This document shows, one piece after another, positions 2,757 to 21,790 of a stretch of DNA of 21,791 nt; position 1 is the stretch's first letter; each line of letters starts with the position of its first letter. The translations under genes and the position numbers were made by a program. This DNA comes from a candidate division WOR-3 bacterium (GTDB lineage: Bacteria; Hydrothermota; Hydrothermia; LBFQ01; DSFT01). The notes below the pieces were generated by a model. It was not told where the DNA came from, searched no databases, and was given only the letters and a program-made list of their open reading frames with translations. The stretch is from assembly GCA_965649115.1 (NCBI GenBank), contig CBFGJN010000031.1, forward strand, positions 1 to 21,791, given 5' to 3'.

Positions 2757-2761
2757 AAATG

Positions 2762-2848
2762 CGGTGGGGGTGGGATTTGAACCCACGTTCCCCTTTCGGG
2801 GAAAGCTGATTTCGAATCAGCCCCTTTGGACCACTCAGGCACCCCACC
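2762..2848 (-). tRNA. tRNA-Ser (anticodon CGA), CCA not encoded
   Basis: Acceptor stem GGTGGGG/CCCCACC with discriminator G; anticodon arm GCTGA-TTCGAAA-TCAGC; long variable arm TTCCCC-GAAA-GGGGAA; T arm GTGGG-TTCAAAT-CCCAC. Confidence 0.97.
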
Positions 2849-4581: not shown

Positions 4582-4593
4582 AATGCTAAAATT

Positions 4594-5385
4594 TTAAAGC
4601 CAATTTAATTTCTTTCTTAAAATATCAAAGAAATCATCAGTTTCACTTAACTTTATCAAAGATGTTTTTTCATCAGATAATTCAACACTAAAAGATAGTT
4701 CTCCCTCGCATTCTTTTAATAATTCACCATCTGAACTTATCCTCCATTTACCAAATTTAGGTTTTACAAGGATACTTACAATCATTTCTTTTGGTAAGAC
4801 AATTGGTCTTGCAGATAAGTTATGAGGACAAATTGGTGTTATAATAAATGCTTTAACTGATGGATGAACAATAGGACCACCAGCGGATAGATTATATGCT
4901 GTTGAACCAGATGGAGAAGAAATGATAATACCATCACCATAAAACGATGTTATAATTGAATTACCAAATTTTACAACAATATCAAGTCCTCTTCCTGAAA
5001 TTGAATTTACACTAAAATCGTTTAATGCACTATCAATTTCAATTCCATTAATAAATAATTTTAACCTATCTCTTCTATCTAAATAGTAATTTCCATTTAA
5101 AAGGGCTTTCTTTATTTCTTCAATTTGTGATATATCAAAAAATGTTAAAAATCCGAGTTTTCCAATTTTTATTCCAATAATAGGTTTTTTAAATTTTTTA
5201 GCACATTTCAAAAGTGTTCCATCACCACCGAGTGAAATAATTATATCGCAAATTTCATTAATTTGTTCATCATTCCATTCACCTCCTATGTGCTTTGAGA
5301 TATAGACATAATCAAAAACAGATTTAATTCTTTCAATTGCTTCATTTAAGTTATAAAATGGATTACCAAAAACACCAACTTTCAA
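4594..5385 (-). CDS. nadK: NAD(+) kinase
   Basis: LGGDGTLL, GKLGFL, ALND, GDGIIISSPSGSTAYNLSAGGP motifs; TTG start overlaps the secF stop. Confidence 0.95.
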   Translation of the reverse strand: MKVGVFGNPFYNLNEAIERIKSVFDYVYISKHIGGEWNDEQINEICDIIISLGGDGTLLKCAKKFKKPIIGIKIGKLGFLTFFDISQIEEIKKALLNGNYYLDRRDRLKLFINGIEIDSALNDFSVNSISGRGLDIVVKFGNSIITSFYGDGIIISSPSGSTAYNLSAGGPIVHPSVKAFIITPICPHNLSARPIVLPKEMIVSILVKPKFGKWRISSDGELLKECEGELSFSVELSDEKTSLIKLSETDDFFDILRKKLNWL

Positions 5386-6287: not shown

Positions 6288-7859
6288 TTAAATCGGCACA
6301 TATTTAACATTAAACTTATAAACAAGAATATCAAATATAAGCCTTGATACAAAAACAGCTGTAAATAAGCTTGTGGCAACACCAATAGCAAGAATTATTG
6401 CAAACCCCTTAATGGGACCCGAACCAAAGAATGTTAAAACTAAGGCAGCAAGAAAGTGTAGTATATTAGTATCCCAAATTGCCCTACTTGCATTTTTATA
6501 ACCATATTCAATAGCACTTACAAAATCTTTACCATTTCTCATTTCTTCTCTCATTCTTTCAAATATAAGAACATTCGCATCAATAGCAAAACCAACAGTT
6601 AAAATAAGTCCTGCCATTCCAGGAAGTGTTAATGTTGCTCCAAGAATTGATAAAATAGCAAGAATAATTAGAAAATTTAAAGCTTGAATGGTAACTGTTA
6701 TTAAGCCACCAAGTCTATAATAAAACATCATAAAAATTAGGACAAATAAATAACCAAAAATTATTGATTTAGTGCCTTTCTCAATTGAATCTTTACCAAG
6801 TGTAGGTCCAACACTTCTTTCTTCTAATATCTTAACAGGTGCAGGAAGTGCACCAGCCTTTAATATATTAGCTAAATCCTTTGCTTCTTGCATACTTTGA
6901 ATCCCTGTTATTTGGGCTCTTCCACCAAGTATAGCTTCTCTTATTTGCGGTGCTGAATATACAAAACTATCAAGAACAATAGCAAGTCTTTTACCAACAT
7001 TTGAAGATGTTATATTAGCAAAAATCATAGCACCCCTTGGATTAAATTCTAGTGAAACAACGGGAGCATTTGGGTGAAATTGATCCCCACCAATTGTAGC
7101 AACTGCATTAATTAAATATGCACCTGTTAAGTCAGCCTTATCTCTTAATAAAAATAATCTTCTAAATTTACTATTTCCAGCACTTTCAAGATTTCCAAAG
7201 AAAAAGCTATATCCTTTTGGAATTAAGTTTTTAATATCTTCTCTATTCAAAATTTTTTTAACTGAATCAATTAGCTCTTCACTTATAGCTAAATCTCCAC
7301 CATAGTTTACCAATAGTGAGCTAAAAGGCTTACTTTTTAATAATGTATCTATTTTTGTAGTATCTCTAATTGTATCCTTTTCTCCTGATAAGTATCTATC
7401 TATTCTATTTATAGTTGCTTCTAATATCTGTGGTTCAGCTAATAACCTAAATTCTAATTGTGCTGTTTTACCTATAATTTCTCTTGCTCTTTCTCTATCA
7501 AGAACACCAGGAAGCTGAACCATAATTCTTTCAGAACCTATTTTTTGGACAATTGGTTCAGCAATCCCAAGATTATCAATACGATTCTTAATAACGAATG
7601 TTGTTCTTTCAACAATATCATTTTTTTCATTCAAACTTATATTTTTTGGTGTCTCAACGTGTAAAACTAAGTACATGCCACCTTGTAAATCAAGACCCAA
7701 GTTTATTGATTTTTTCTTTAATTCTCTTAATTTTTCCTTTGGCATAAATTCTTTTTGAGCTTCAGAAAGTGTATAGTATTGTATAGTAGGGTATAGAAAA
7801 TATATGGAAAGAGCAATAACTATTAGCGTTATGATAATTCTTAGATTTAGGGTTTTCAT
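6288..7859 (-). CDS. secD: Protein translocase subunit SecD
   Basis: NLGLDLQGG, RIDNLGIAEP, VGPTLGKDSI, IDANVLIFERMREE. Confidence 0.97.
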   Translation of the reverse strand: MKTLNLRIIITLIVIALSIYFLYPTIQYYTLSEAQKEFMPKEKLRELKKKSINLGLDLQGGMYLVLHVETPKNISLNEKNDIVERTTFVIKNRIDNLGIAEPIVQKIGSERIMVQLPGVLDRERAREIIGKTAQLEFRLLAEPQILEATINRIDRYLSGEKDTIRDTTKIDTLLKSKPFSSLLVNYGGDLAISEELIDSVKKILNREDIKNLIPKGYSFFFGNLESAGNSKFRRLFLLRDKADLTGAYLINAVATIGGDQFHPNAPVVSLEFNPRGAMIFANITSSNVGKRLAIVLDSFVYSAPQIREAILGGRAQITGIQSMQEAKDLANILKAGALPAPVKILEERSVGPTLGKDSIEKGTKSIIFGYLFVLIFMMFYYRLGGLITVTIQALNFLIILAILSILGATLTLPGMAGLILTVGFAIDANVLIFERMREEMRNGKDFVSAIEYGYKNASRAIWDTNILHFLAALVLTFFGSGPIKGFAIILAIGVATSLFTAVFVSRLIFDILVYKFNVKYVPI

Positions 7860-7892
7860 AAGATTGGAAATTTTAAAGTCAAAAGCGGGGGC

Positions 7893-8747
7893 TTAAAATA
7901 GGATTTCACAAAACCCCAAAGGTTTATTATCAGTAGTTTTCCAAAATGTCCTCTTTTTATATTTTTCATAAAGATCTTCGTCAAAATGAAACAAAATTAA
8001 CATAATAGTATTGCTAAAATAACCCTTAAATCTTCCTAATCTAATTAATTTTTTGTTTTCCAAATTAGATAAATTATTATATAAGTTTATGCTTTTAAGA
8101 TAATTTACTAAATCCTTGGAAAATTCTGAAATTGCATTATCAATTTCATTTTTCAAGTTATTATCCTTAAATTTAATATCTATTTCAAATTCAAAATCTT
8201 CTCTTAACACTTCAACAGCTAAACTTAAATTTTTATGCTTTATTTCTATAACTTTCAAGCAATTAGACGGCTCAAATAATTCACTATCTGAAACTAAGAT
8301 GTTCCTAAAAATATTATCTATACTTTTTTCAAATGTTCTATAAAAATCCTTAAAATTCCTATTTCTTATCTGTTTTAAAAATTCGTTTCTTAAATTATTA
8401 TCATTTTTTATCATTCTATACAAATAAGAAGTTCTTATTGCTCCTTTAATACTTGAGCCTGGAATATAAACCTTATTTTTCAGTTTAATAAATTCATAAA
8501 CTTTATCATTTGGACTGCTGTGAAATGGAATTTCATAAGTTGGACTTATTTTTAAATCATATTTTTTCATAAATTCTTCAAGTCCCAAATCAAAAAGTAA
8601 TTTTGCCATATCTTTACTATCAATATAATTATTTATAATTTCATCAAAACTATAAAACTGAAATTTTGAACCTCTTATTATAAATTCAAATTTAGCTAAA
8701 ATTTGACCACTTGAAATATGAACTGGCGTTAAAACCCTAAATTTCAT
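7893..8747 (-). CDS. csm5: Type III-A CRISPR RAMP protein Csm5 (short)
   Basis: VLTPVHISSG, YIPGSSIKGAIRT, ILVSDS, C-terminal PLGFCEI; last position in the csm operon; GGAGG Shine-Dalgarno. Confidence 0.88.
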   Translation of the reverse strand: MKFRVLTPVHISSGQILAKFEFIIRGSKFQFYSFDEIINNYIDSKDMAKLLFDLGLEEFMKKYDLKISPTYEIPFHSSPNDKVYEFIKLKNKVYIPGSSIKGAIRTSYLYRMIKNDNNLRNEFLKQIRNRNFKDFYRTFEKSIDNIFRNILVSDSELFEPSNCLKVIEIKHKNLSLAVEVLREDFEFEIDIKFKDNNLKNEIDNAISEFSKDLVNYLKSINLYNNLSNLENKKLIRLGRFKGYFSNTIMLILFHFDEDLYEKYKKRTFWKTTDNKPLGFCEILF

Positions 8748-8748
8748 A

Positions 8749-9675
8749 CTATCCTCCTTTTATATAAAATCCAAAGCTATAACCATATTGATAAATTTTA
8801 TTGGAATTGTATTGAATGGAAGACGAAGAACCATAATAATCACTTATGTTTTTAAGCTGAATAATTGAACCATCTGAAATATATAAAAATCTTCCCTTAA
8901 TAACGAGCTTTTTGAAATCAAAATAATTATCAACTATTCCTAAGGTTGAAATAATATCATAATAACTATTTTCTAAATCAAATTTTTCATCATAAAAACT
9001 TGGACTTAACAAATAAATTTTATTTGACTTATTTTTAATATATTTTGAAAGTTCAATTTCTTCCTTAAATTCAATAAATTCTACAATTCCTCTTGAAATA
9101 CCTTTTCCTGAAAAATATAAAATTTTCAAAACAGGTTCCAATTTGCTAATTAAGTTTTCATCAAAAAACAAAATGTAAAACTTTAAAAATGAATTTATAG
9201 AATAAGACTTTTCAATGAAAAATTTGCTTTCATCAGTTATAAATGTAATTCTATTTATACTCACATGAGGAAATACAACATTTGTAATAATTTCATCTAC
9301 AATTATATCTTTCGTTTTTTGAAATAAATCATTATTATCTTTAATTTTTCCTTCTAAAATTTCAATTAGTGTCTGTTTATCAATAAATTGAATTCTTTTG
9401 AATTTTTTATATTTTCTATATTCATCAGCATTATTAAATGTTATTGAACCTTCTAAATTAGGCTTTTTAAAAAATTCTACATCACCTTTTACAAATGTTG
9501 GAGATGATACGAGAAATTTAGGATTACTTTCAAAGTTTTCTAATAAACGTTCTAATTCTTCTTTTGAATAGAAAATTCTATAATACCAACAAATTGCTCC
9601 AAAAATTGTCCAAGAACTTGGAATTTCTTTAAATGCACTTCTAGGTTTATATAGAACTGAGTAAAGCTTTGACAT
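8749..9675 (-). CDS. csm4: Type III-A CRISPR RAMP protein Csm4 (Cas5 group)
   Basis: PSSWTIFGAICW, FLVSSP, VSINRIT, YLLS, YQYGY; lies between csm3 and csm5. The start could instead be 9678. Confidence 0.88.
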   Translation of the reverse strand: MSKLYSVLYKPRSAFKEIPSSWTIFGAICWYYRIFYSKEELERLLENFESNPKFLVSSPTFVKGDVEFFKKPNLEGSITFNNADEYRKYKKFKRIQFIDKQTLIEILEGKIKDNNDLFQKTKDIIVDEIITNVVFPHVSINRITFITDESKFFIEKSYSINSFLKFYILFFDENLISKLEPVLKILYFSGKGISRGIVEFIEFKEEIELSKYIKNKSNKIYLLSPSFYDEKFDLENSYYDIISTLGIVDNYFDFKKLVIKGRFLYISDGSIIQLKNISDYYGSSSSIQYNSNKIYQYGYSFGFYIKGG

Positions 9676-10429
9676 CATCAAATTCCCTTATGTTTTCTTC
9701 TTTTCCTTTTAAATAATAATCTATTTCCCTTTCTATCAATTTTAAATTTCTAAATTTTACCCTACCATATCCTCTTGAACCTGAACCACCAAGGTAATTA
9801 TCTTCCAACAATTTTAAACCTGTTAATATCGTTGATTTAAATCTTTTAGGAAAATCATCATCCTCATAAACAAAATAAACAATTCTTCCCTCAAATTCCG
9901 AACCTGCTGGAATTCTTTCAAATTTTCTTGGTTCGGCTTTTGATGTTATTCTATCAATTCTATTTTCTGTTTTTATTTCGGTAAGGTTTTCTCTTAAATT
10001 ATTATAACTTTTTTCAGTTAAGTACATGTCATAAAAAATTGCTCTTGGAGGTCCTGGAAGTTCATTAACAGGTAAATTTTCAATTGTTTTTGAGGACCCT
10101 GTTCCAAATACAATACAAACATCACACTTACCACAATCACAAGGTTTTCCCGCCTTATTTTGATTCTTCATTGCCTCAACTCTACCAAGAGCCCATTCCA
10201 ATAAGCTTCTTAATTTCCCTTTAAGAGAAGAACCCGGAATATATGGTGTATCTTTCGAGAGGTGTTTATCTTTTCCATAATAGTCATATATCGTTGAAGT
10301 AAGTTTTATGACAGGATTATCTAAACCACCTATTTCAAAAGTTTCTTTTGAACCTCCAATACGAAGTCCTGTTTTAAGATGAATAACAAAATCCAGAATA
10401 ACAACCTTCTTTAATCTAAAACTTTTCAT
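9647..10429 (-). CDS. csm3: Type III-A CRISPR backbone RNase Csm3 (Cas7 group)
   Basis: TGLRIGG, IGGLDNPVIK (catalytic Asp retained), YIPGSSLKGKLRSLLE, CDCGKCDVC, KTENRIDR, YLGGSGSRGYG; ATG 10429 follows GGAGGG. Confidence 0.96.
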   Translation of the reverse strand: MKSFRLKKVVILDFVIHLKTGLRIGGSKETFEIGGLDNPVIKLTSTIYDYYGKDKHLSKDTPYIPGSSLKGKLRSLLEWALGRVEAMKNQNKAGKPCDCGKCDVCIVFGTGSSKTIENLPVNELPGPPRAIFYDMYLTEKSYNNLRENLTEIKTENRIDRITSKAEPRKFERIPAGSEFEGRIVYFVYEDDDFPKRFKSTILTGLKLLEDNYLGGSGSRGYGRVKFRNLKLIEREIDYYLKGKEENIREFDDVKALLSSI

Positions 10430-10829
10430 ATTTACGCCCTCCTTTTTCAAAAGCTGTAAAATAAGCTACAAGAGCTATCATAAAATCTTTCAATTTTTCA
10501 AAATCTTCCTCATCTTCAACCTTATCTAAAATTATTTCTAATATATCTTTAAATTCAGGAGGAAGAAGCTGTCTTCCCATAGCATAGTAAATTTTAGGAT
10601 ATATTAAAACTTTCTTTTTTCTTGCTTGTTCTAAATTTCTTTCAGCTTCCTCACAAGCAGAAAGAATTTCGCTAAAAATTTTTCTCAATTGGGATATTGT
10701 AATTTTTTCTTTTCGACTAAAATAATCTGCTATCCTATAAGCAATGCCCTTATTTGGAGTAGCAAAATCTTCTTCTTTTAGCTCAGAAAGTTTCTTTATT
10801 TGTTTTAGTTTTTCCTTAACTTCGTTCAT
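10416..10829 (-). CDS. csm2: Type III-A CRISPR small subunit Csm2 (Cas11)
   Basis: ITISQLRKIFSEI, PKIYYAMGR, FMIALVAYF; alpha-helical; GGGAGG Shine-Dalgarno. Confidence 0.92.
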   Translation of the reverse strand: MNEVKEKLKQIKKLSELKEEDFATPNKGIAYRIADYFSRKEKITISQLRKIFSEILSACEEAERNLEQARKKKVLIYPKIYYAMGRQLLPPEFKDILEIILDKVEDEEDFEKLKDFMIALVAYFTAFEKGGRKYEKF

Positions 10830-12652
10830 TGCTTAACCTCCCTTGTTTTCATCAAAAGAAGTTCAAGGAAAATTTCAGAACTTTCTTTAATTTTCATACT
10901 TTGCTTATCAATAATTTTTGATTCAAAATCATTACGAATAAAATCATCACTTATATTTCTATATATTTGATAATAAAACATAGGAAAGAAAAGATATTTT
11001 CTTTCTAACATTATGTAAATTCTATGAATTAAACTTCTTGAAATTTTACCCTTATATTCTTCTGATTTATTTTTAGCATCATTATAAACTCTTTCAAGTT
11101 CATCAAATGAAATAAATTTACTAAATATAAAAACTTCTTTTCCTTCTTCTTTAACCCTATCCAAATTCTTACTTGTTATTTCAGCAGCAAACTTAATAGG
11201 ATAACTATAATCAAATAAGTTTATACTCGCAGAAATAGATAAATCATTTATTGTCCATTCCTTAAATTCCTTATTTATTTCAATTACAAGTTCAATTATT
11301 TTATCCCACCTTCCAACCAAAAATAAATCATCTCCTCCCGAATAAACAACATAAATGTTATCTTTATACTTTTCAAATACAAACCTTAAATACATAGAAA
11401 AGAATAAATCTATAAATCTACTTAATCTTGAAACTTCAAAGAAACTATCAATTTGAGAAAATTTAAAACCAAGTTTATTAACGTCAATTTTTAAGTACGC
11501 TAATTTCTTATAACCTTCACCTTCAACAAGCTCATTAAATGGTTTAATTTCTTGAATAAAATTTATAAATTTAAAACCATAATCAAATAAAGCTTCACTT
11601 AAAACATTCAAAATGTAAAAATTTTCTTCATTGGGAGGACTTTCTAAAATGTCAATATATCCAACATTTTTAAGTCCAATACCTCTATTGTTTGAAAAAA
11701 CTAAAAAATAACCTTTTAATAGTTTTTCACCAAGTTCTTCAAAATTTTTACACCAATCACAAAATTCATCATTATAATGTTTTGTTTCAATTCTACAAGA
11801 AGGACAAATATCATTACTTTTAATTTTTAAAGAAACACTATTTAGAATTTTATAAAACTTTCTAAATTTTTCCCTTTCAAGTTTTTGGAATAATTCTTGT
11901 GATTTTTGTTTATAGTTTTTAAAATCATCTAAAATTAGCTCAACATAAGCAAATGTTAAACCAAGACGACCGCTAAAACTTTCTAAAATTATTTTATTTA
12001 TTTCATTTAGTTTTTCAATAACCTTATCCAAAAATTTTATATTAAATAATAGTTGAAATTTACCACCTCCCACGTATATCGTATTAAAAATAGGATAATT
12101 TATTTTATCTAAAATTGACTTTGAAATCATTTCAGGTAATATACTCAAAAAGAAGCTTCTTCCTCTTAGTCTTTTGGCAAAACCTTCAACATTTGTTATA
12201 TTATAAATAAATTTTTGAATACCATTAATATCTCCTTCAAGTAAAATTGCTTTATCATTTAAGCTTAAAAATGAATTACTAATGGCTCCAAAAATCTTCA
12301 TATAATCAACAATGCTAAAAAATTTATAATAAGTAAAATAATAAACGTTTTTAAGTTTTTTGTTTATGTCAATTTCTTTTAGATATTTATCTACTTGTTC
12401 TTTGTATTCCTCAACATACTTCTTTTCAATTTTAAATTGACCTTTTATAGGTTTTAAATCGTTAAAATTTTTAAGTTCAGTTAATTTATATGTCCATTCA
12501 TTTGAAAATGGTGATTGAAAATTTGGATTTAAATCTAAGCAATTATAAATTTCCTCATATCTTTTTCTATCAAATTCATTTTCAAATTTTATACCTAAAA
12601 TTCTTTCAATTGAATATAAAAAGCCTTCTAAATATAACTTTTTATAATCCAT
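10826..12652 (-). CDS. cas10: Type III-A Cas10/Csm1 with degenerate HD domain and intact GGDD
   Basis: GDINGIQKFIY, LRGRSFFL, YVGGGKF, zinc finger CPSC...CDWC, LKIDVNKLG, VVYSGGDDLFLVG. Start moved to ATG 12652 (MDYKK, 608 aa) because the extension runs into the repeat. Confidence 0.95.
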   Translation of the reverse strand: MDYKKLYLEGFLYSIERILGIKFENEFDRKRYEEIYNCLDLNPNFQSPFSNEWTYKLTELKNFNDLKPIKGQFKIEKKYVEEYKEQVDKYLKEIDINKKLKNVYYFTYYKFFSIVDYMKIFGAISNSFLSLNDKAILLEGDINGIQKFIYNITNVEGFAKRLRGRSFFLSILPEMISKSILDKINYPIFNTIYVGGGKFQLLFNIKFLDKVIEKLNEINKIILESFSGRLGLTFAYVELILDDFKNYKQKSQELFQKLEREKFRKFYKILNSVSLKIKSNDICPSCRIETKHYNDEFCDWCKNFEELGEKLLKGYFLVFSNNRGIGLKNVGYIDILESPPNEENFYILNVLSEALFDYGFKFINFIQEIKPFNELVEGEGYKKLAYLKIDVNKLGFKFSQIDSFFEVSRLSRFIDLFFSMYLRFVFEKYKDNIYVVYSGGDDLFLVGRWDKIIELVIEINKEFKEWTINDLSISASINLFDYSYPIKFAAEITSKNLDRVKEEGKEVFIFSKFISFDELERVYNDAKNKSEEYKGKISRSLIHRIYIMLERKYLFFPMFYYQIYRNISDDFIRNDFESKIIDKQSMKIKESSEIFLELLLMKTREVKQ

Positions 12653-12700
12653 TTTTTGAAATTTTAAAGGATAAATTTTTAAGTTGCTTAAACTATTTAT

Positions 12701-12865
12701 TTTTGAGGGATTTAACGGAGGGCTTTGCCCCAAAGCCGAAATATGGGTATTTTAAAGCCGAGGGCTTAATTATAGGGTGGGGAAAATATAATTAATATAA
12801 AATATACAGTTTTAGAATTACTAGACAGGGCAATTTGTTTAATTTTTTGAACTTTAAAATTTTCA
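12701..12865 (+). repeat. Dispersed intergenic element, copy 2 (between cas10 and the divergent gene pair)
   Basis: GGGC-TTT-GCCC, AAGCC-GAG-GGCTT, AGGGTGGGG, AGAATTACTAGACA ending at 12827, TAAAAT 12855-12860; 12728-12792 is identical to 13906-13970. Confidence 0.9.
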
Positions 12866-12870
12866 TAATA

Positions 12871-13335
12871 GTGATTGCTATTATTTATCCAAAAAGTGAT
12901 AAATTAGCAAGAGAAATAGTAATAAAAACCAGTTTGGATTATGATAATGTTTATATAGCACCTACATATAGAATTAGCGAAGAGGAAGTTTTAAGAGAAT
13001 TAAAAAGAGCAAAATATGGAATTATGTTAATTTTTGACCCAAATGTCCGAATTGACCAAAGAACCAAAAAAAGGTATTACTTCTTAAAAGATATAGTTAA
13101 AAAAATGTTTGTTTTTATACCTGATAGTATTAAATTAGATGAAAGAAATAAGAATGTTGAAGTGATAAGATATAAAAGTAATGATTATAATGATTTGATT
13201 AGTAAGTTAGAATTTCTATTAAATGAGCTTAAAAATAAAAGGATTAGAAAAAAGCAAGATGAAAATTCAATTTTGCTCCTATTACTTATAGCATTTATAG
13301 TTGCACTTCTGATAACTTCCAAAAGTTCAAAATGA
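12871..13335 (+). CDS. Hypothetical protein: TIR-like/flavodoxin-fold domain with a C-terminal transmembrane helix
   Basis: Beta-alpha pattern IAIIY..SD..A..I / NVYIA / EVLRELKRAKYGIMLIF / KKMFVFIP; hydrophobic tail ILLLLLIAFIVALLI; GTG start 10 nt after TAAAAT. The fold assignment is tentative. Confidence 0.6.
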   Translation: MIAIIYPKSDKLAREIVIKTSLDYDNVYIAPTYRISEEEVLRELKRAKYGIMLIFDPNVRIDQRTKKRYYFLKDIVKKMFVFIPDSIKLDERNKNVEVIRYKSNDYNDLISKLEFLLNELKNKRIRKKQDENSILLLLLIAFIVALLITSKSSK

Positions 13336-13845
13336 ATGTTAAGAATAATTGTTTTAGATAGTAATATCATTATAGAATTTGAAAGGATTAAAAAAAAATT
13401 TGGAAATCGGAGTTTCAGAAAAACTTTTCGTATATTTATAGGAAGTTTTTGTAAAGGTGAATATATATTGATACCTTTAAAAGTTAAATATGAACTGAAA
13501 AGCAGTAAAATTCTTGAAGCTTTTAATAGTATCCTTGGAAATTCAATAGGATTTTCAATATGTGAAATTTCTAACATAGAAGAAATAAAAACACTTATAA
13601 AAAAATGCTTTAACGGCAATATGAGAAACATAGGAGAGGCAGACGCTATAAATCAAATTTTAAAATATATGAATATGAATAAAGAAAGTATATCAAAAAT
13701 GTTTGGTTTTAAGGATGTGGAATTTGTATTTGTTTCAAATGATAAAAAAGCCTTGGAAGTTGCAGGAAGTTTAAAAATTAAGATTATAAATTGGAAAGAC
13801 TTTAAAGAAACTTTAAATGAAATTTTATACATTGATTATCAATGA
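13336..13845 (+). CDS. PIN-domain (VapC-like) ribonuclease
   Basis: IVLDSNII, IPLKVKYEL, IGEADAI and FVSNDKKA give the PIN acidic residues; ATG directly follows the upstream TGA. Confidence 0.82.
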   Translation: MLRIIVLDSNIIIEFERIKKKFGNRSFRKTFRIFIGSFCKGEYILIPLKVKYELKSSKILEAFNSILGNSIGFSICEISNIEEIKTLIKKCFNGNMRNIGEADAINQILKYMNMNKESISKMFGFKDVEFVFVSNDKKALEVAGSLKIKIINWKDFKETLNEILYIDYQ

Positions 13846-14038
13846 CTTATGAAAATTTTAGTTGAAAATATAGATTTTACTGGGGGATTTATGGGGGGCT
13901 CTGCCCCCCAAAGCCGAAATATGGGTATTTTAAAGCCGAGGGCTTAATTATAGGGTGGGGAAAATATAATAAAATTATACAGTTTTAGAATTACTATACA
14001 ATCATTTTTATAAATTCTTTCATGCTTTAAAATTTTCA
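13825..14038 (+). repeat. Dispersed intergenic element, copy 3 (most complete)
   Basis: ATTGATTATCAATGACTTA, TGGGGGGC-TCT-GCCCCCCA (13892-13910), AAGCC-GAG-GGCTT, AGGGTGGGG, AGAATTACTATACA ending at 14000, TAAAAT 14028-14033. Confidence 0.9.
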
Positions 14039-14040
14039 TT

Positions 14041-14625
14041 ATGAACATAATTGAAACTTTGAGGGATATTGTTGATAATAAAAAAAGTGGTTTATTTAAA
14101 GCAGGAGAGTACATATTTCTTTTTAAAGAAGGAAAGCTTCTTGAAGTAGCAGGAAAAACGTCAAACAGGGAGGAAGCTCTAAATGATATTATTGAAAATG
14201 ATTATAAAAACTATGAATTTCAGGAGATAAGTGCATCTACTTTAATTTCCTTTCAAGAGCCTTTGGATATTTCTGATAAATTGATAAGGAAAAAAAGAGG
14301 TAGAGAAGTGAAAATTGATGAAAATATAAATAAAAAAATTCAAGATATTAAGCTTATGTTCCCAAGTTTAAGTAAAATTTTAGTAGGAAAAATAAAGGGA
14401 GAAATTCTCGCTTATTTAGGTCTTAGCGAAGATGAGATAGAGAATTTAGCAAACAATGTTGATTTAATATATGAAAAATTTTTTAATTTAAAAGAAATAA
14501 TTCTCAATTCAGAAAATTCTTCAACTTTAATTAAATTCATAGATGATAAGTACATATTATGTTCTTTGAATAGTTCTGAAAATATAGGAATTTTGAGAGT
14601 TATAATAAGTGAGGTGATAAAATGA
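14041..14625 (+). CDS. Hypothetical protein with DUF4388-like N-terminus and roadblock/LC7-like C-terminus
   Basis: [13 protein letters not shown]...IFLFKEGKL at the N-terminus; [12 protein letters not shown]...ENIGILRV at the C-terminus resembles roadblock domains. Domain calls are tentative. Confidence 0.55.
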
Positions 14626-14843
14626 GTGAAAAAAAAGATGTTATAAGAGTTGAAGGAACAATAACCGAAGTTTTACCAAATGCGCTTTTTAGAGTAAGGC
14701 TTGATAATGGAAAAGAAATTTTAGCTTATCTTTCAGGAAAAATGAGAATACATTATATTAGAATTGTTCCTGGGGATAGAGTAATTGTAGAATTACCTGT
14801 TTATGATTTAAGCAAGGGGAGAATTGTTTATAGGTATAAATGA
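14622..14843 (+). CDS. infA: Translation initiation factor IF-1
   Basis: [21 protein letters not shown]...[17 protein letters not shown]...[17 protein letters not shown] Shine-Dalgarno. Confidence 0.98.
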
Positions 14844-17377: not shown

Positions 17378-17435
17378 AATAAATTTAGATAGCCTTAAAA
17401 TTTTAAAGGGCAAGGAAACAAATAAAGGCTAAGCT

Positions 17436-17578
17436 CTTTGGCGTCAGCCCCCTGCCAAAAAATGGGGGACGAAGTTTTAAGCCGAAGGCTCAATTTCAGG
17501 GTGGACTGGAAAAATATATATTTTTTAGAATTATTGGACACAGCAAATATACAAATTTTTTATGCTTTAAAATTTTCA
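17436..17578 (+). repeat. Dispersed intergenic element, copy 4 (diverged; upstream of fusA)
   Basis: GGCGTCAGCCCCC, AGCC-GAA-GGCT (17480-17490), CAGGGTGG, AGAATTATTGGACA ending at 17540, TAAAAT 17568-17573, TTTCA. Confidence 0.8.
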
Positions 17579-17584
17579 GAACTT

Positions 17585-20793: not shown

Positions 20794-21663
20794 TTAATTC
20801 AACAATTTACTTAATAATTTTGGGACTTCTTCGGGCAGACTTGCAACTTTAACACCTGCACTCTCAAATGCCTTTATTTTTTCTTCTGCTGTTCCTTCAC
20901 TTCCTGCAATAATTGCACCTGCATGTCCCATTCTCCTTTCAGGTGGTGCTGTTCTACCTGCTATAAAGGCTAATACTGGTTTCTTAAATTCTTTCTTAAT
21001 ATATTCAGCAGCATCTTGTTCATCTGTTCCGCCTATCTCACCTATTAGAATAACAGCATCAGTTTCATCATCTTCATTAAATAATTTTAAAATATCTACG
21101 AATTTTGAACCAATGACAGGATCCCCTCCAATACCAACAGCAGTTGATTGACCAAATCCATTTATTGTTAATTGATTAACGATTTCATAAGTTAATGTTC
21201 CACTTCTTGAAACTACACCTATTCTACCTCTCCTAAAAATATGAGATGGCATAATTCCAATTTTACATTCATTTGGTGTAATAATACCAGGACAATTAGG
21301 ACCAATAAGCCTAGTTCCTTTTTTATCAAGATAATTCTTAACTTTAATCATATCATGAATAGGGATGCCTTCTGTTATTACAACAATTAGGCTAATCCCA
21401 TTATCTGCAGCTTCATATATAGCATCTACTGCAAACTGTGGGGGGACAAATATGATTGAAGCGTTTGGTGAAGTCTTTTTAACTGCTTCCCTAACTGTAT
21501 CAAATATTGGAATTCCAAGATAATCGCTTCCTCCTTTCCCAGGTGTAACACCAGCAACGATTTTGGTGCCATATTCAAGCATCAATTTCGTATGAAAAGA
21601 TCCATCCCTTCCTGTTATTCCTTGAACAAGAACTCTCGTGTCTTTATTTATAAGAATTGCCAT
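20794..21663 (-). CDS. sucD: Succinyl-CoA synthetase alpha subunit
   Basis: [37 protein letters not shown] (phospho-His); start moved to ATG 21663. Confidence 0.97.
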
Positions 21664-21665
21664 TT

Positions 21666-21790
21666 TGAAAATTTTAAAGCAAATTAAATTTTCCCCACCC
21701 ACCCTATATTTAAGCCTTCGGCTTATAAATACCCGTTTAAATCTATAATTTCCTCAAAGCTTTTATAAGTTATTGATAATCAAGGATTTA
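21666..21790 (-). repeat. Dispersed intergenic element, copy 5 (internally deleted; upstream of sucD)
   Basis: Minus strand reads TTGATTATCAATAACTTA...GGGTATTTATAAGCC-GAA-GGCTTAAATATAGGGTGGGTGGGGAAAAT...GCTTTAAAATTTTCA; lacks the first hairpin and the RKACA block. Confidence 0.85.

What the first reader, a model, noticed from the sequence alone, without database searches (positions are those of the whole stretch)
12871..13845. Candidate new type III accessory effector: membrane-anchored TIR-like protein plus PIN RNase, divergent from cas10
Seen: two abutting genes (TGA|ATG) share a 218-bp divergent control region with cas10. Gene 1 (154 aa) has a TIR-like beta-alpha pattern and a C-terminal membrane helix; where TIR NADases carry the catalytic Glu it appears to read QRTKKRYY. 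Gene 2 has a full PIN acidic set and no ribbon-helix-helix or AbrB antitoxin beside it. Established: HD-less Cas10 needs an effector, and known membrane effectors such as Cam1 and Csx23 have N-terminal helices and C-terminal sensors, the reverse of this layout. Inference: gene 1 may be a non-catalytic nucleotide sensor or membrane-tethered antitoxin that controls the PIN toxin in response to a Cas10 signal. It could equally be an independent toxin-antitoxin or anti-phage pair.
Basis: partly seen in the sequence, partly recalled or inferred. Interest (0 to 1): 0.8.

Follow-up and report, generated by a model that had tools for sequence, protein, structure and literature searches.

The report
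Tail-anchored TIR-like protein plus PIN nuclease
Two tightly coupled genes next to a CRISPR operon encode a membrane-anchored TIR-like protein and a PIN RNA-cutting enzyme; they form a small mobile, toxin-antitoxin-like pair found in hot-spring bacteria, and nothing links them to the CRISPR system beside them.

Summary
Gene 1 (12871-13335, 154 aa) abuts gene 2 (13336-13845, 169 aa) at TGA|ATG. Gene 1 folds as a TIR/NDT-like domain with a C-terminal membrane helix. Gene 2 is a PIN nuclease with D8, E53, D103 and D136.

The Cas10 reading is not supported. None of 24 other loci holding a gene 1 relative has a Csm/Cas gene in the DNA seen. Cas10 was not found in 4 of 8 other genomes that carry the pair. 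This genome already encodes CARF proteins in a second type III locus. The "shared control region" is two separate promoter motifs with a truncated MITE between them; the scan had found this MITE before on other pieces of this genome, but not the gene pair.

The pair is a self-contained, patchily distributed module of WOR-3/Hydrothermia bacteria. All 12 full-length gene 2 relatives follow a gene 1 relative. Gene 1 also occurs alone. Gene 2 is often broken and evolves under weaker constraint.

New point: 88 of 100 family members carry Glu or Asp where TIR enzymes have their catalytic Glu. The window's clade has Arg.

Best reading (about 0.5): PIN toxin or effector held in check by a non-catalytic, membrane-anchored TIR-like partner. 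Binding and toxicity are untested.

The parts
10826..12652 (-). cas10/csm1 (608 aa from ATG 12652), HD-less, GGDD intact. It heads csm2-csm5 (7893-10829). It is a neighbour, not part of the module.
   Evidence: Pfam Cas10 palm2 and Csm1_B. TIGR02578, E 4.8e-98, matches model positions 91-753 only. 88% identical full-length homologue in G057.
12659..12669 (-). cas10's own promoter motif (CTTTAAAATTT), 6 nt upstream of its ATG.
   Evidence: Exact match. All 8 exact matches in the window lie a few bases upstream of a gene start.
12682..12831 (+). 5'-truncated copy of the genome-wide MITE of about 205 bp. The left inverted end is missing; the right end lies 20 nt before gene 1's promoter motif.
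   Evidence: nhmmer hit 12682-12869 among 653 in the genome. Alignment to 24+ full copies. Direct repeat with 13906-13973 at 99%.
12852..12862 (+). Promoter motif of the gene 1-gene 2 operon, 8 nt before the GTG start (little or no leader).
   Evidence: Exact motif match. Same motif and spacing before orf194, secD and cas10.
12871..13335 (+). Gene 1: tail-anchored TIR-like protein, 154 aa. TIR-like domain about residues 1-105, connecting helix, hydrophobic anchor about residues 134-149 (nt 13270-13317). Arg68 sits where the family has Glu/Asp.
13336..13845 (+). Gene 2: PIN-domain nuclease, 169 aa, with D8, E53, D103, D136. Its ATG abuts gene 1's TGA. The last four codons and the stop (13831-13845) lie in MITE-derived sequence.
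13831..14004 (+). Second MITE copy, truncated at its left end. It is followed by the promoter motif at 14025-14035 and by orf194-infA (14041-14843).

Best explanation
The two genes are an autonomous, horizontally mobile two-gene module of WOR-3/Hydrothermia bacteria. It lies next to the csm operon by chance of insertion, between two promoter-associated MITE copies.

Gene 2 is a metal-dependent PIN ribonuclease that acts as the toxin or effector. Gene 1 is a TIR-derived protein anchored in the inner membrane by a C-terminal helix, with its domain in the cytoplasm. In this clade it has lost the family's Glu at the TIR catalytic position (Arg68). It is made first, with gene 2's start codon abutting its stop, and most likely acts as the cognate inhibitor (antitoxin) that holds the PIN enzyme inactive at the membrane. 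Loss, turnover or displacement of gene 1 protein would then free the RNase and stop growth, as in toxin-antitoxin or abortive-infection systems.

Shown: the folds, the conserved residues, the obligatory gene order, the patchy distribution, the decay of gene 2 and the lack of any Cas linkage.

Inferred: binding between the two proteins, toxicity of gene 2, neutralisation by gene 1, and the trigger.
For: (1) Conserved unit. All 12 full-length gene 2 relatives found in 272 genomes of the phylum lie directly downstream of a gene 1 relative, abutting it or overlapping by 1 to about 34 nt.

(2) Asymmetry expected of an antitoxin and a toxin. Gene 1 occurs without gene 2 in L046 and L055, and beside a PIN remnant in L049; no PIN remnants were found in the solo loci. 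Gene 2 never occurs alone.

(3) Gene 2 decays. Of 7 metagenome copies of the window's clade that hold gene 2 sequence, 3 are broken: L065 lacks residues 2-20 including D8; L058 has D8Y plus an IS1 insertion; L057 has an internal deletion and a frameshift. Every adjacent gene 1 is intact.

(4) Selection. Pairwise dN/dS for gene 1 is 0.00-0.40 (36 pairs, median about 0.24, solo copy included). For gene 2 it is 0.48-1.74 (10 pairs, median about 0.67).

(5) Accessory and mobile behaviour. A P0001 match was found in 9 of 272 genomes and in 0 of 4 same-genus genomes. With the two divergent pairs, five genomes hold two copies. Neighbours vary and include an MmeI-type restriction-modification gene, an AAA_15/AbiEii-like ATPase, a HepT/MNT pair, a DUF4411-PIN/M78 pair and an integrase.

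(6) Gene 2 is a PIN nuclease with an intact acidic set. By VIA-align the top 35 rows are almost all PIN or PIN-like domains, including VapC toxins.

(7) Gene 1 is TIR-like. VIA Z is 10.0-10.4 to MilB, RPS4 TIR, NDT, TIR-STING and TIR-1. The family profile reaches true TIR_2 proteins of the same length and C-terminal anchor at whole-library E 4.5e-4 and 7.2e-4. hhalign aligns Y6/D10 and position 68 with the TIR 'Y..D' and catalytic Glu.

(8) Independence from Cas10.
Against: - No physical interaction was shown.
- Gene 1 has no DNA-binding domain and is a membrane protein, unlike any described PIN antitoxin. I recall no precedent, and searches found none.
- Solo gene 1 copies stay under purifying selection. 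Gene 1 therefore has a function of its own that a pure antitoxin role does not explain.
- 88 of 100 family members keep Glu/Asp at position 68, so most of the family may be catalytic. An enzyme or signal role would then be the ancestral mechanism.
- The TIR homology rests on weak statistics: hhalign probability 28%, Foldseek E about 1e-3, and a continuum of flavodoxin-like matches at Z about 9.
- The dN/dS values come from few substitutions in very AT-rich DNA.
- The counts of broken and solo copies are small, and some metagenome contigs are near-duplicates (L059/L060; L061/L062).
Confidence: 0.5

Rival explanations
1. Thoeris-like minimal immune pair. The membrane-anchored TIR protein senses infection and makes or consumes an NAD-derived signal that switches on the PIN RNase. 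Gene 1 is then the activator or sensor, not the inhibitor.
For: The family keeps Glu (76) or Asp (12) of 100 at the position aligned with the TIR catalytic Glu, plus near-invariant D10, D62 and T65 in the loops at the C-terminal ends of the strands. TIR sensors paired with separate effectors are known (Thoeris; from my own knowledge). The module lies beside other defence genes in several loci.
Against: The window's clade has Arg68 in all 9 close homologues aligned, yet gene 1 is still under purifying selection. Gene 2 (169 aa) is a bare PIN domain with no room for a SLOG-, Macro- or other ligand-sensor domain. Gene 2 never occurs alone while gene 1 does. No PADLOC Thoeris model matches.
Confidence: 0.17
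2. No toxin-antitoxin relation. Gene 1 has its own membrane-associated function, for example nucleotide binding or scaffolding. Gene 2 is a co-transcribed, dispensable RNase that is being lost in this clade.
For: Solo gene 1 copies are intact and constrained, while gene 2 evolves under weaker constraint and is often broken.
Against: The gene order and the abutting or overlapping junction are kept across 19-100% identity, and gene 2 is never found without gene 1. The PIN acidic residues are conserved across the family. The distribution is patchy and the neighbours are defence-type or mobile, not housekeeping synteny.
Confidence: 0.2
3. First reader's reading. The pair is an accessory module of the adjacent HD-less Csm system. 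Gene 1 senses a Cas10 product and releases the PIN RNase, or the PIN enzyme degrades the signal as an off-switch.
For: Adjacency and divergent orientation to an HD-less, GGDD-bearing cas10 with no effector gene in the operon. VapBC-like modules are typical of type III-D2 loci, and a signal-degrading role has been proposed for their PIN protein (PMC13294483; passages read).
Against: 0 of 24 other loci have a cas gene in the DNA seen. Cas10 was not found in 4 of 8 other genomes that hold the pair (completeness 89-98%); in the other 4 it is on another contig. There is no CARF, SAVED or other known sensor. CARF effectors are encoded on contig C5. Each side has its own promoter motif, with a MITE between them.
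Confidence: 0.04

Closest known systems
VapBC type II toxin-antitoxin modules (PIN toxin VapC)
   Same: Two small coupled genes, the partner first and the PIN nuclease second. Full acidic active site. Patchy, multi-copy, mobile distribution. The toxin gene decays. VapC structures are among the fold matches.
   Different: The upstream partner is not an RHH, AbrB, PhD or MerR DNA-binding antitoxin. It is a 154-aa TIR-like domain with a C-terminal membrane anchor. The PIN protein is below the threshold of every Pfam PIN model. Binding and toxicity are untested.
Bacterial TIR_2 domain proteins, including ~165-aa TIR_2 proteins with a C-terminal membrane helix (P0126, P0128)
   Same: Same length and architecture. 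Same fold class. Shared 'Y-x3-D' and '(E/D)-L' motifs at aligned positions. The family profile reaches these proteins.
   Different: Gene 1 itself matches no TIR model in Pfam and carries Arg at the catalytic Glu position. The gene neighbours of P0126 and P0128 could not be seen (one search found nothing).
Thoeris (ThsB TIR sensor plus ThsA effector)
   Same: A TIR-fold protein encoded beside a separate degradative enzyme. ThsB structures are among the fold matches (6lhy, 8v6t).
   Different: The effector here is a bare PIN domain without a signal-binding domain. The TIR-like protein is membrane-anchored and lacks the Glu in this clade. No PADLOC match.
Membrane effectors of type III CRISPR (Cam1, Csx23, Cam2) and the VapBC-like module of type III-D2 loci
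   Same: Membrane protein and/or PIN module beside cas10 (PMC11229360 and PMC13294483; passages read).
   Different: Cam1 and Csx23 have N-terminal membrane helices and C-terminal cA4-binding soluble domains (a CARF domain in Cam1), and Cam2 an N-terminal membrane domain and a C-terminal REC-like domain; all are conserved in type III loci. This pair has the reverse layout, no known sensor and no conserved cas neighbourhood.

Membership tests
PIN domain nucleases | PIN fold (three-layer alpha/beta/alpha with a central parallel sheet) | tested here: met
   Model pLDDT 90.1. The Foldseek hits with E up to 0.001 are Rrp44 PIN, HARP, a protein-only RNase P (PRORP) and VapC. By VIA-align, 29 chains reach Z>=8, all PIN or PIN-like domains; best Z is 10.7.
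PIN domain nucleases | Four conserved acidic active-site residues | tested here: met
   D8 and E53 invariant; D103 and D136 in at least 90% of 11 aligned sequences; all four present in the window's protein.
PIN domain nucleases | Match to a curated PIN sequence model above threshold | tested here: not met
   PIN_4 E 0.025, 15.3 bits against a cut-off of 21.9. One homologue (L050) matches PF01850 at 1.5e-5.
TIR domain (TIR_2 / ThsB-like) | TIR/flavodoxin-like fold | tested here: met
   VIA Z 10.0-10.4 to RPS4 TIR, TIR-STING and TIR-1, tied with MilB and NDT. Foldseek top hit is TIR-STING, E 9e-4. P-loop GTPases follow at Z about 9, so the fold class is clear but the family is less so.
TIR domain (TIR_2 / ThsB-like) | Significant sequence or profile similarity to TIR models | tested here: inconclusive
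   No Pfam hit for the window's protein. hhalign of the family against a TIR_2 alignment: probability 28%, E 6e-4, 85 columns. The family profile reaches two true TIR_2 proteins at E 4.5e-4 and 7.2e-4. 4 of 100 members match TIR_2.
TIR domain NADases | Catalytic Glu at the start of helix C | tested here: not met
   The aligned position is Arg68 in the window's protein and in all 9 close homologues. Of 100 family members, 76 have Glu and 12 have Asp.
Type II toxin-antitoxin (VapBC-like) | Antitoxin gene upstream of and coupled to the toxin gene | tested here: met
   TGA|ATG junction. Abutting or overlapping in the homologous pairs.
Type II toxin-antitoxin (VapBC-like) | Antitoxin with a DNA-binding domain (RHH, AbrB, PhD, MerR) and a toxin-binding tail | tested here: not met
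   Gene 1 is a TIR-like domain plus a membrane helix, with no DNA-binding family match.
Type II toxin-antitoxin (VapBC-like) | Toxicity of the toxin and neutralisation by direct binding | not testable with these tools
   Needs expression and pull-down experiments.
Type III CRISPR ancillary effector | Recurrent neighbourhood with cas10 | tested here: not met
   0 of 24 other loci. Cas10 not found in 4 of 8 other genomes that hold the pair.
Type III CRISPR ancillary effector | Known signal-sensing domain (CARF, SAVED, CorA N-domain and others) | tested here: not met
   No Pfam, NCBIfam or PADLOC match for either protein. The fold matches are TIR/NDT and PIN.

The most novel reading that the evidence does not exclude
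The family is a previously undescribed, minimal membrane-tethered TIR-PIN immune module. In the Glu-bearing majority, the tail-anchored TIR domain makes or destroys an NAD-derived signal that gates the PIN RNase. In the window's Arg68 clade, the TIR domain has become a purely structural inhibitor. This would be the first TIR-derived antitoxin and the first Thoeris-like system with a PIN effector. Solo copies on integrase-bearing elements would serve as antidotes.
Probability: 0.15. Interest if true: 0.7.

Novelty: new variant of a known kind. Interest (0 to 1): 0.4.

Why it matters
It removes a tempting false lead. An HD-less Cas10 with an odd gene pair beside it is not enough to call a new CRISPR effector, above all in a genome where mobile repeats and small modules fill the spaces between operons.

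It also defines a small protein family that no library names: 113 clusters among 1.84 billion representative proteins. In it, a TIR-type domain with a C-terminal membrane anchor is always the upstream partner of a PIN nuclease.

If the partner proves to be the inhibitor, it would be a new kind of antitoxin, membrane-anchored and TIR-derived. If the Glu-bearing members are enzymes, it would be a new minimal TIR signalling pair. Either result can be tested with simple co-expression assays.

Tried and rejected
- Complex prediction of PIN with gene 1 residues 1-128 gave no verdict: scores 0.00, 0.32, 0.00. It counts neither for nor against binding.
- Sequence searches of solved structures with the profiles gave nothing significant. 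Best hits: a TIR chain at E 0.052 for the family; HARP at E 0.38 for gene 2.
- PADLOC, NCBIfam and PHROGs gave no family for either protein.
- The JGI label 'V-ATPase subunit F' on one homologue was rejected. No such structure appears among the fold matches listed, and no ATPase genes are nearby.
- A receiver (REC, Cam2-like) reading was prompted by D10 and D56. No receiver domain appears in the top 50 of either fold search, so it was not pursued.
- Rfam found no RNA family in the flanking repeats.
- The sigma-70 consensus scan found fewer sites than chance and no terminators.
Searches with P0126 in genome contigs and with A3 in viral contigs found nothing, so a viral home for gene 1 is not shown beyond L046.
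- The ESM Atlas gave only leads below 0.9: TIR clusters for gene 1, PIN clusters for gene 2.
- Sequencing runs: no RNA holder was listed.
- Contigs of four runs break at the MITEs. The one joint across the pair (12836 to 13832, one contig, 27 letters on the shorter side, MITE-end letters between) has MITE sequence on both sides, so it can come from any tandem MITE and is not an empty site. One 1679-base contig of run X7 matches only 12852-13384 and differs on both sides, a weak hint of gene 1 in another context.
- The same-genus genome G057 has the same csm-secDF synteny, but its contig starts 175 nt upstream of cas10. Neither the pair nor orf194 was found in it, so it cannot show an empty site.

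Full report
**What is there.** The window is contig C31 of a 1.85-Mb, 27.6% G+C assembly. Source names attached to homologous proteins place these relatives in candidate division WOR-3 / Ca. Hydrothermia.

On the minus strand lies a type III-A operon: cas10 (10826-12652), csm2, csm3, csm4 and csm5 (down to 7893). Cas10 lacks the HD domain: TIGR02578 matches from model position 91 onward and there is no HD family hit. It keeps GGDD.

On the plus strand, gene 1 runs from GTG 12871 to TGA 13335 (154 aa). Gene 2 runs from ATG 13336 to 13845 (169 aa). The stop and the start codon abut.

**The 'shared control region'.** The 218 bp between cas10 and gene 1 are not a common regulatory region. The motif CTTTAAAATTT occurs exactly 8 times in the window, each time a few bases upstream of a gene start. 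Allowing one mismatch gives 23 matches against 12.9 expected by chance. One exact copy serves cas10 (12659-12669, minus strand). Another serves gene 1 (12852-12862, 8 nt before the GTG).

Between the two lies a copy (12682 to about 12831) of a repeat with 653 nhmmer matches in this genome, 144 of them near full length. A second copy follows gene 2 (about 13831-14004) and is followed by the promoter motif of orf194-infA.

Alignment to full copies shows an element of about 205 bp with inverted ends. Its right end sits 20 nt before the promoter motif, and both copies here are truncated at the left. Gene 2's last four codons and its stop lie in repeat-derived sequence. Relatives of gene 2 end four to five residues earlier.

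Earlier notes of this scan on other pieces of this genome describe the same element as an IS903-like, promoter-homing MITE. My alignment agrees on its ends and spacing. I did not test the transposase link. Rfam knows no RNA in it.

**Gene 2.** Pfam gives only a sub-threshold PIN_4 match (E 0.025). The model (pLDDT 90.1) is a PIN domain. The Foldseek hits with E up to 0.001 are Rrp44 PIN, protein-only RNase P (HARP, PRORP) and VapC. In the Foldseek-independent search, 29 chains reach Z>=8, and all are PIN or PIN-like domains. Across 11 relatives, D8 and E53 are invariant, and D103 and D136 are conserved in at least 90%.

**Gene 1.** No library names it. The model (pLDDT 91.1) has strands 2-5, 27-29, 49-53, 78-84 and 96-101 alternating with helices, then one long helix 106-153. 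The end of that helix is the hydrophobic stretch. 83 of 100 family members have such a C-terminal stretch.

The best structural matches are MilB (Z 10.4), RPS4 TIR (10.3), a nucleoside deoxyribosyltransferase (10.2), TIR-STING (10.1), TIR-1/SARM1 (10.0), RCL, ThsB and other TIR domains. P-loop GTPases follow at about Z 9. Foldseek agrees, with TIR-STING first at E 9e-4.

An exhaustive profile search finds 113 representative clusters at E up to 0.001, and 84 at E up to 1e-10. Nearly all are 140-200 aa and most match over their full length. The two weakest substantial hits (P0126, P0128) are true TIR_2 proteins of about 165 aa with the same C-terminal helix.

A 100-member alignment compared with a TIR_2 alignment built from this phylum gives hhalign probability 28%, E 6e-4. 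It aligns Y6/D10 with the TIR 'Y..D' and family position 68 with the TIR catalytic Glu. I read gene 1 as a divergent, tail-anchored TIR-type domain. The fold is shown; the homology is probable but not proven.

**The missing Glu.** Position 68 is Glu in 76 of 100 family members, Asp in 12 and Arg in 5. The window's protein and all 9 close homologues aligned have Arg. The family as a whole keeps an acidic residue there, together with near-invariant D10, D62 and T65.

**Is it linked to Cas10?** In 272 genomes of the phylum, a P0001 match is found in 9, in 0 of 4 of the same genus, at 13 places. A profile search adds two more diverged pairs.

I looked at up to about 8 kb on each side of 12 loci. 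Blastp with the window's five Csm proteins gave one marginal match (csm5, 34 residues, E 0.006). A Pfam scan of 113 neighbouring ORFs found no Cas family. Ten metagenome contigs with close relatives, several of them short, also hold no Cas gene.

Of the 8 other genomes that hold the pair, 4 have a Cas10 palm domain, always on another contig. In the other 4 none was found (completeness 89-98%).

This genome has 8 contigs with CRISPR arrays. It also has a Cmr locus on contig C5 that encodes a Csx1-type CARF protein (423 aa), a Cas_APE2256 CARF protein (270 aa) and an embedded HepT/MNT pair. An HD-less Csm complex is therefore not without candidate effectors.

The literature confirms that Cam1 and Csx23 carry N-terminal membrane helices (PMC11229360; passages read). 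It also shows that VapBC-like modules occur in type III-D2 loci, where an off-switch role was only proposed (PMC13294483; passages read). No such conserved association exists here. I put the Cas10 reading at about 0.04.

**What the comparative data say about function.**
- All 12 full-length gene 2 relatives in the phylum lie directly after a gene 1 relative.
- Gene 1 occurs without gene 2 in L046, beside an integrase (phrog_1, E 6e-18) and a weak terminase-like match, and in L055. In L049 it lies beside PIN fragments. No PIN remnants exist in the solo loci.
- In the window's clade, 4 metagenome copies of gene 2 are intact. Three are broken: L065 has an N-terminal deletion that removes D8; L058 has D8Y plus an IS1 insertion; L057 has a deletion plus a frameshift. 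Three contigs (L059, L060, L066; the first two near-identical) have gene 1 alone.
- dN/dS is 0.00-0.40 for gene 1 and 0.48-1.74 for gene 2. These values rest on few changes in AT-rich DNA.
- Neighbours differ from locus to locus and often are restriction, Abi-like or toxin-antitoxin genes.

This is the pattern of a selfish or defensive two-gene module. The second gene is harmful or dispensable; the first is the protective or indispensable partner.

**Mechanism.** Most likely (about 0.5), gene 2 is a PIN toxin or effector and gene 1 its inhibitor, tethering it at the cytoplasmic face of the membrane. Release would lead to RNA cleavage and growth arrest. Binding, toxicity and the trigger are inferred.

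Two rivals remain open. One is a Thoeris-like pair in which the TIR domain signals to the PIN enzyme (0.17). It is favoured by the conserved Glu in most of the family. It is disfavoured by the Arg68 clade and by the bare PIN domain. The other is an independent function of gene 1 with a decaying RNase beside it (0.2).

**Novelty.** No paper describing a TIR-like partner of a PIN toxin, or a membrane-anchored PIN antitoxin, turned up in searches. These cover full text of open PMC papers and bioRxiv only. Supplementary tables of the type III surveys were not opened and could list such neighbours. I class it as a new variant of a known kind, of moderate interest. Its main value is that it corrects the CRISPR reading and defines an unnamed family.

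Noticed in passing
window 12682-12831 and 13831-14004; also 148-331, 17444-17580, 21662-21737: Genome-wide MITE-like repeat of about 205 bp: 653 nhmmer matches in 1.85 Mb. Its right end lies 20 nt upstream of a promoter motif. Both copies flanking the pair are truncated at the left. The second copy supplies the last four codons and the stop of gene 2.
   Followed up: partly
window 4589-4599(-), 7868-7878(-), 12659-12669(-), 12852-12862(+), 14025-14035(+), 17398-17408(-), 17565-17575(+), 21669-21679(-): The motif CTTTAAAATTT occurs exactly 8 times, each a few bases upstream of a probable start codon. This suggests a -10-like promoter element and messengers with almost no leader and no Shine-Dalgarno sequence. 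Several longest-ORF starts (311, 17438, 17413, 21702) therefore look too far upstream.
   Followed up: partly
window 2761-2848 (-): tRNA-Ser(CGA) ends 4 nt before an in-frame ATG (2756) of the OmpH-like gene. This is another case of the tRNA-against-start-codon layout noted earlier in this genome.
   Followed up: partly
G000 contig C5 about 8400-23000 (locus L056): Second type III locus (Cmr1-6, 867-aa Cas10). It holds a Csx1-type CARF protein, a Cas_APE2256 CARF protein, two proteins without a significant Pfam family (305 and 288 aa; the latter has only a sub-threshold DA1-like match) and a HepT/MNT toxin-antitoxin pair embedded between cmr genes. An AAA+/EVE-domain ATPase lies at one end, a McrBC-like gene lies on the other strand beyond the other end, and a CRISPR array lies at 27390-27872.
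   Followed up: partly
L058 6329-7615: An IS1-type element (InsA-like plus DDE_Tnp_IS1 ORFs) is inserted in the gene 2 homologue, which also carries D8Y.
   Followed up: yes
L049 5721-8434: A gene 1 homologue with a decayed PIN gene lies next to an intact M78-peptidase / DUF4411-PIN pair: two PIN modules side by side.
   Followed up: no
L046 1-6700: A solo gene 1 lies next to an integrase, a weak terminase-like ORF and a small Fusellovirus-VP2-like protein, on a 10.9-kb contig of a WOR-3 genome. This may be an integrated element.
   Followed up: partly
window 14041-14843: A 194-aa ORF without any family overlaps the start of infA (IF-1) by 4 nt. It is kept with infA in three same-genus genomes (56-63% identity).
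   Followed up: partly
window 7859-12652: The csm1-5 operon has no cas6, cas1, cas2, array or effector gene beside it. It is followed directly by secDF, which has its own promoter motif. The same csm-secDF synteny exists in one same-genus genome (G057).
   Followed up: partly
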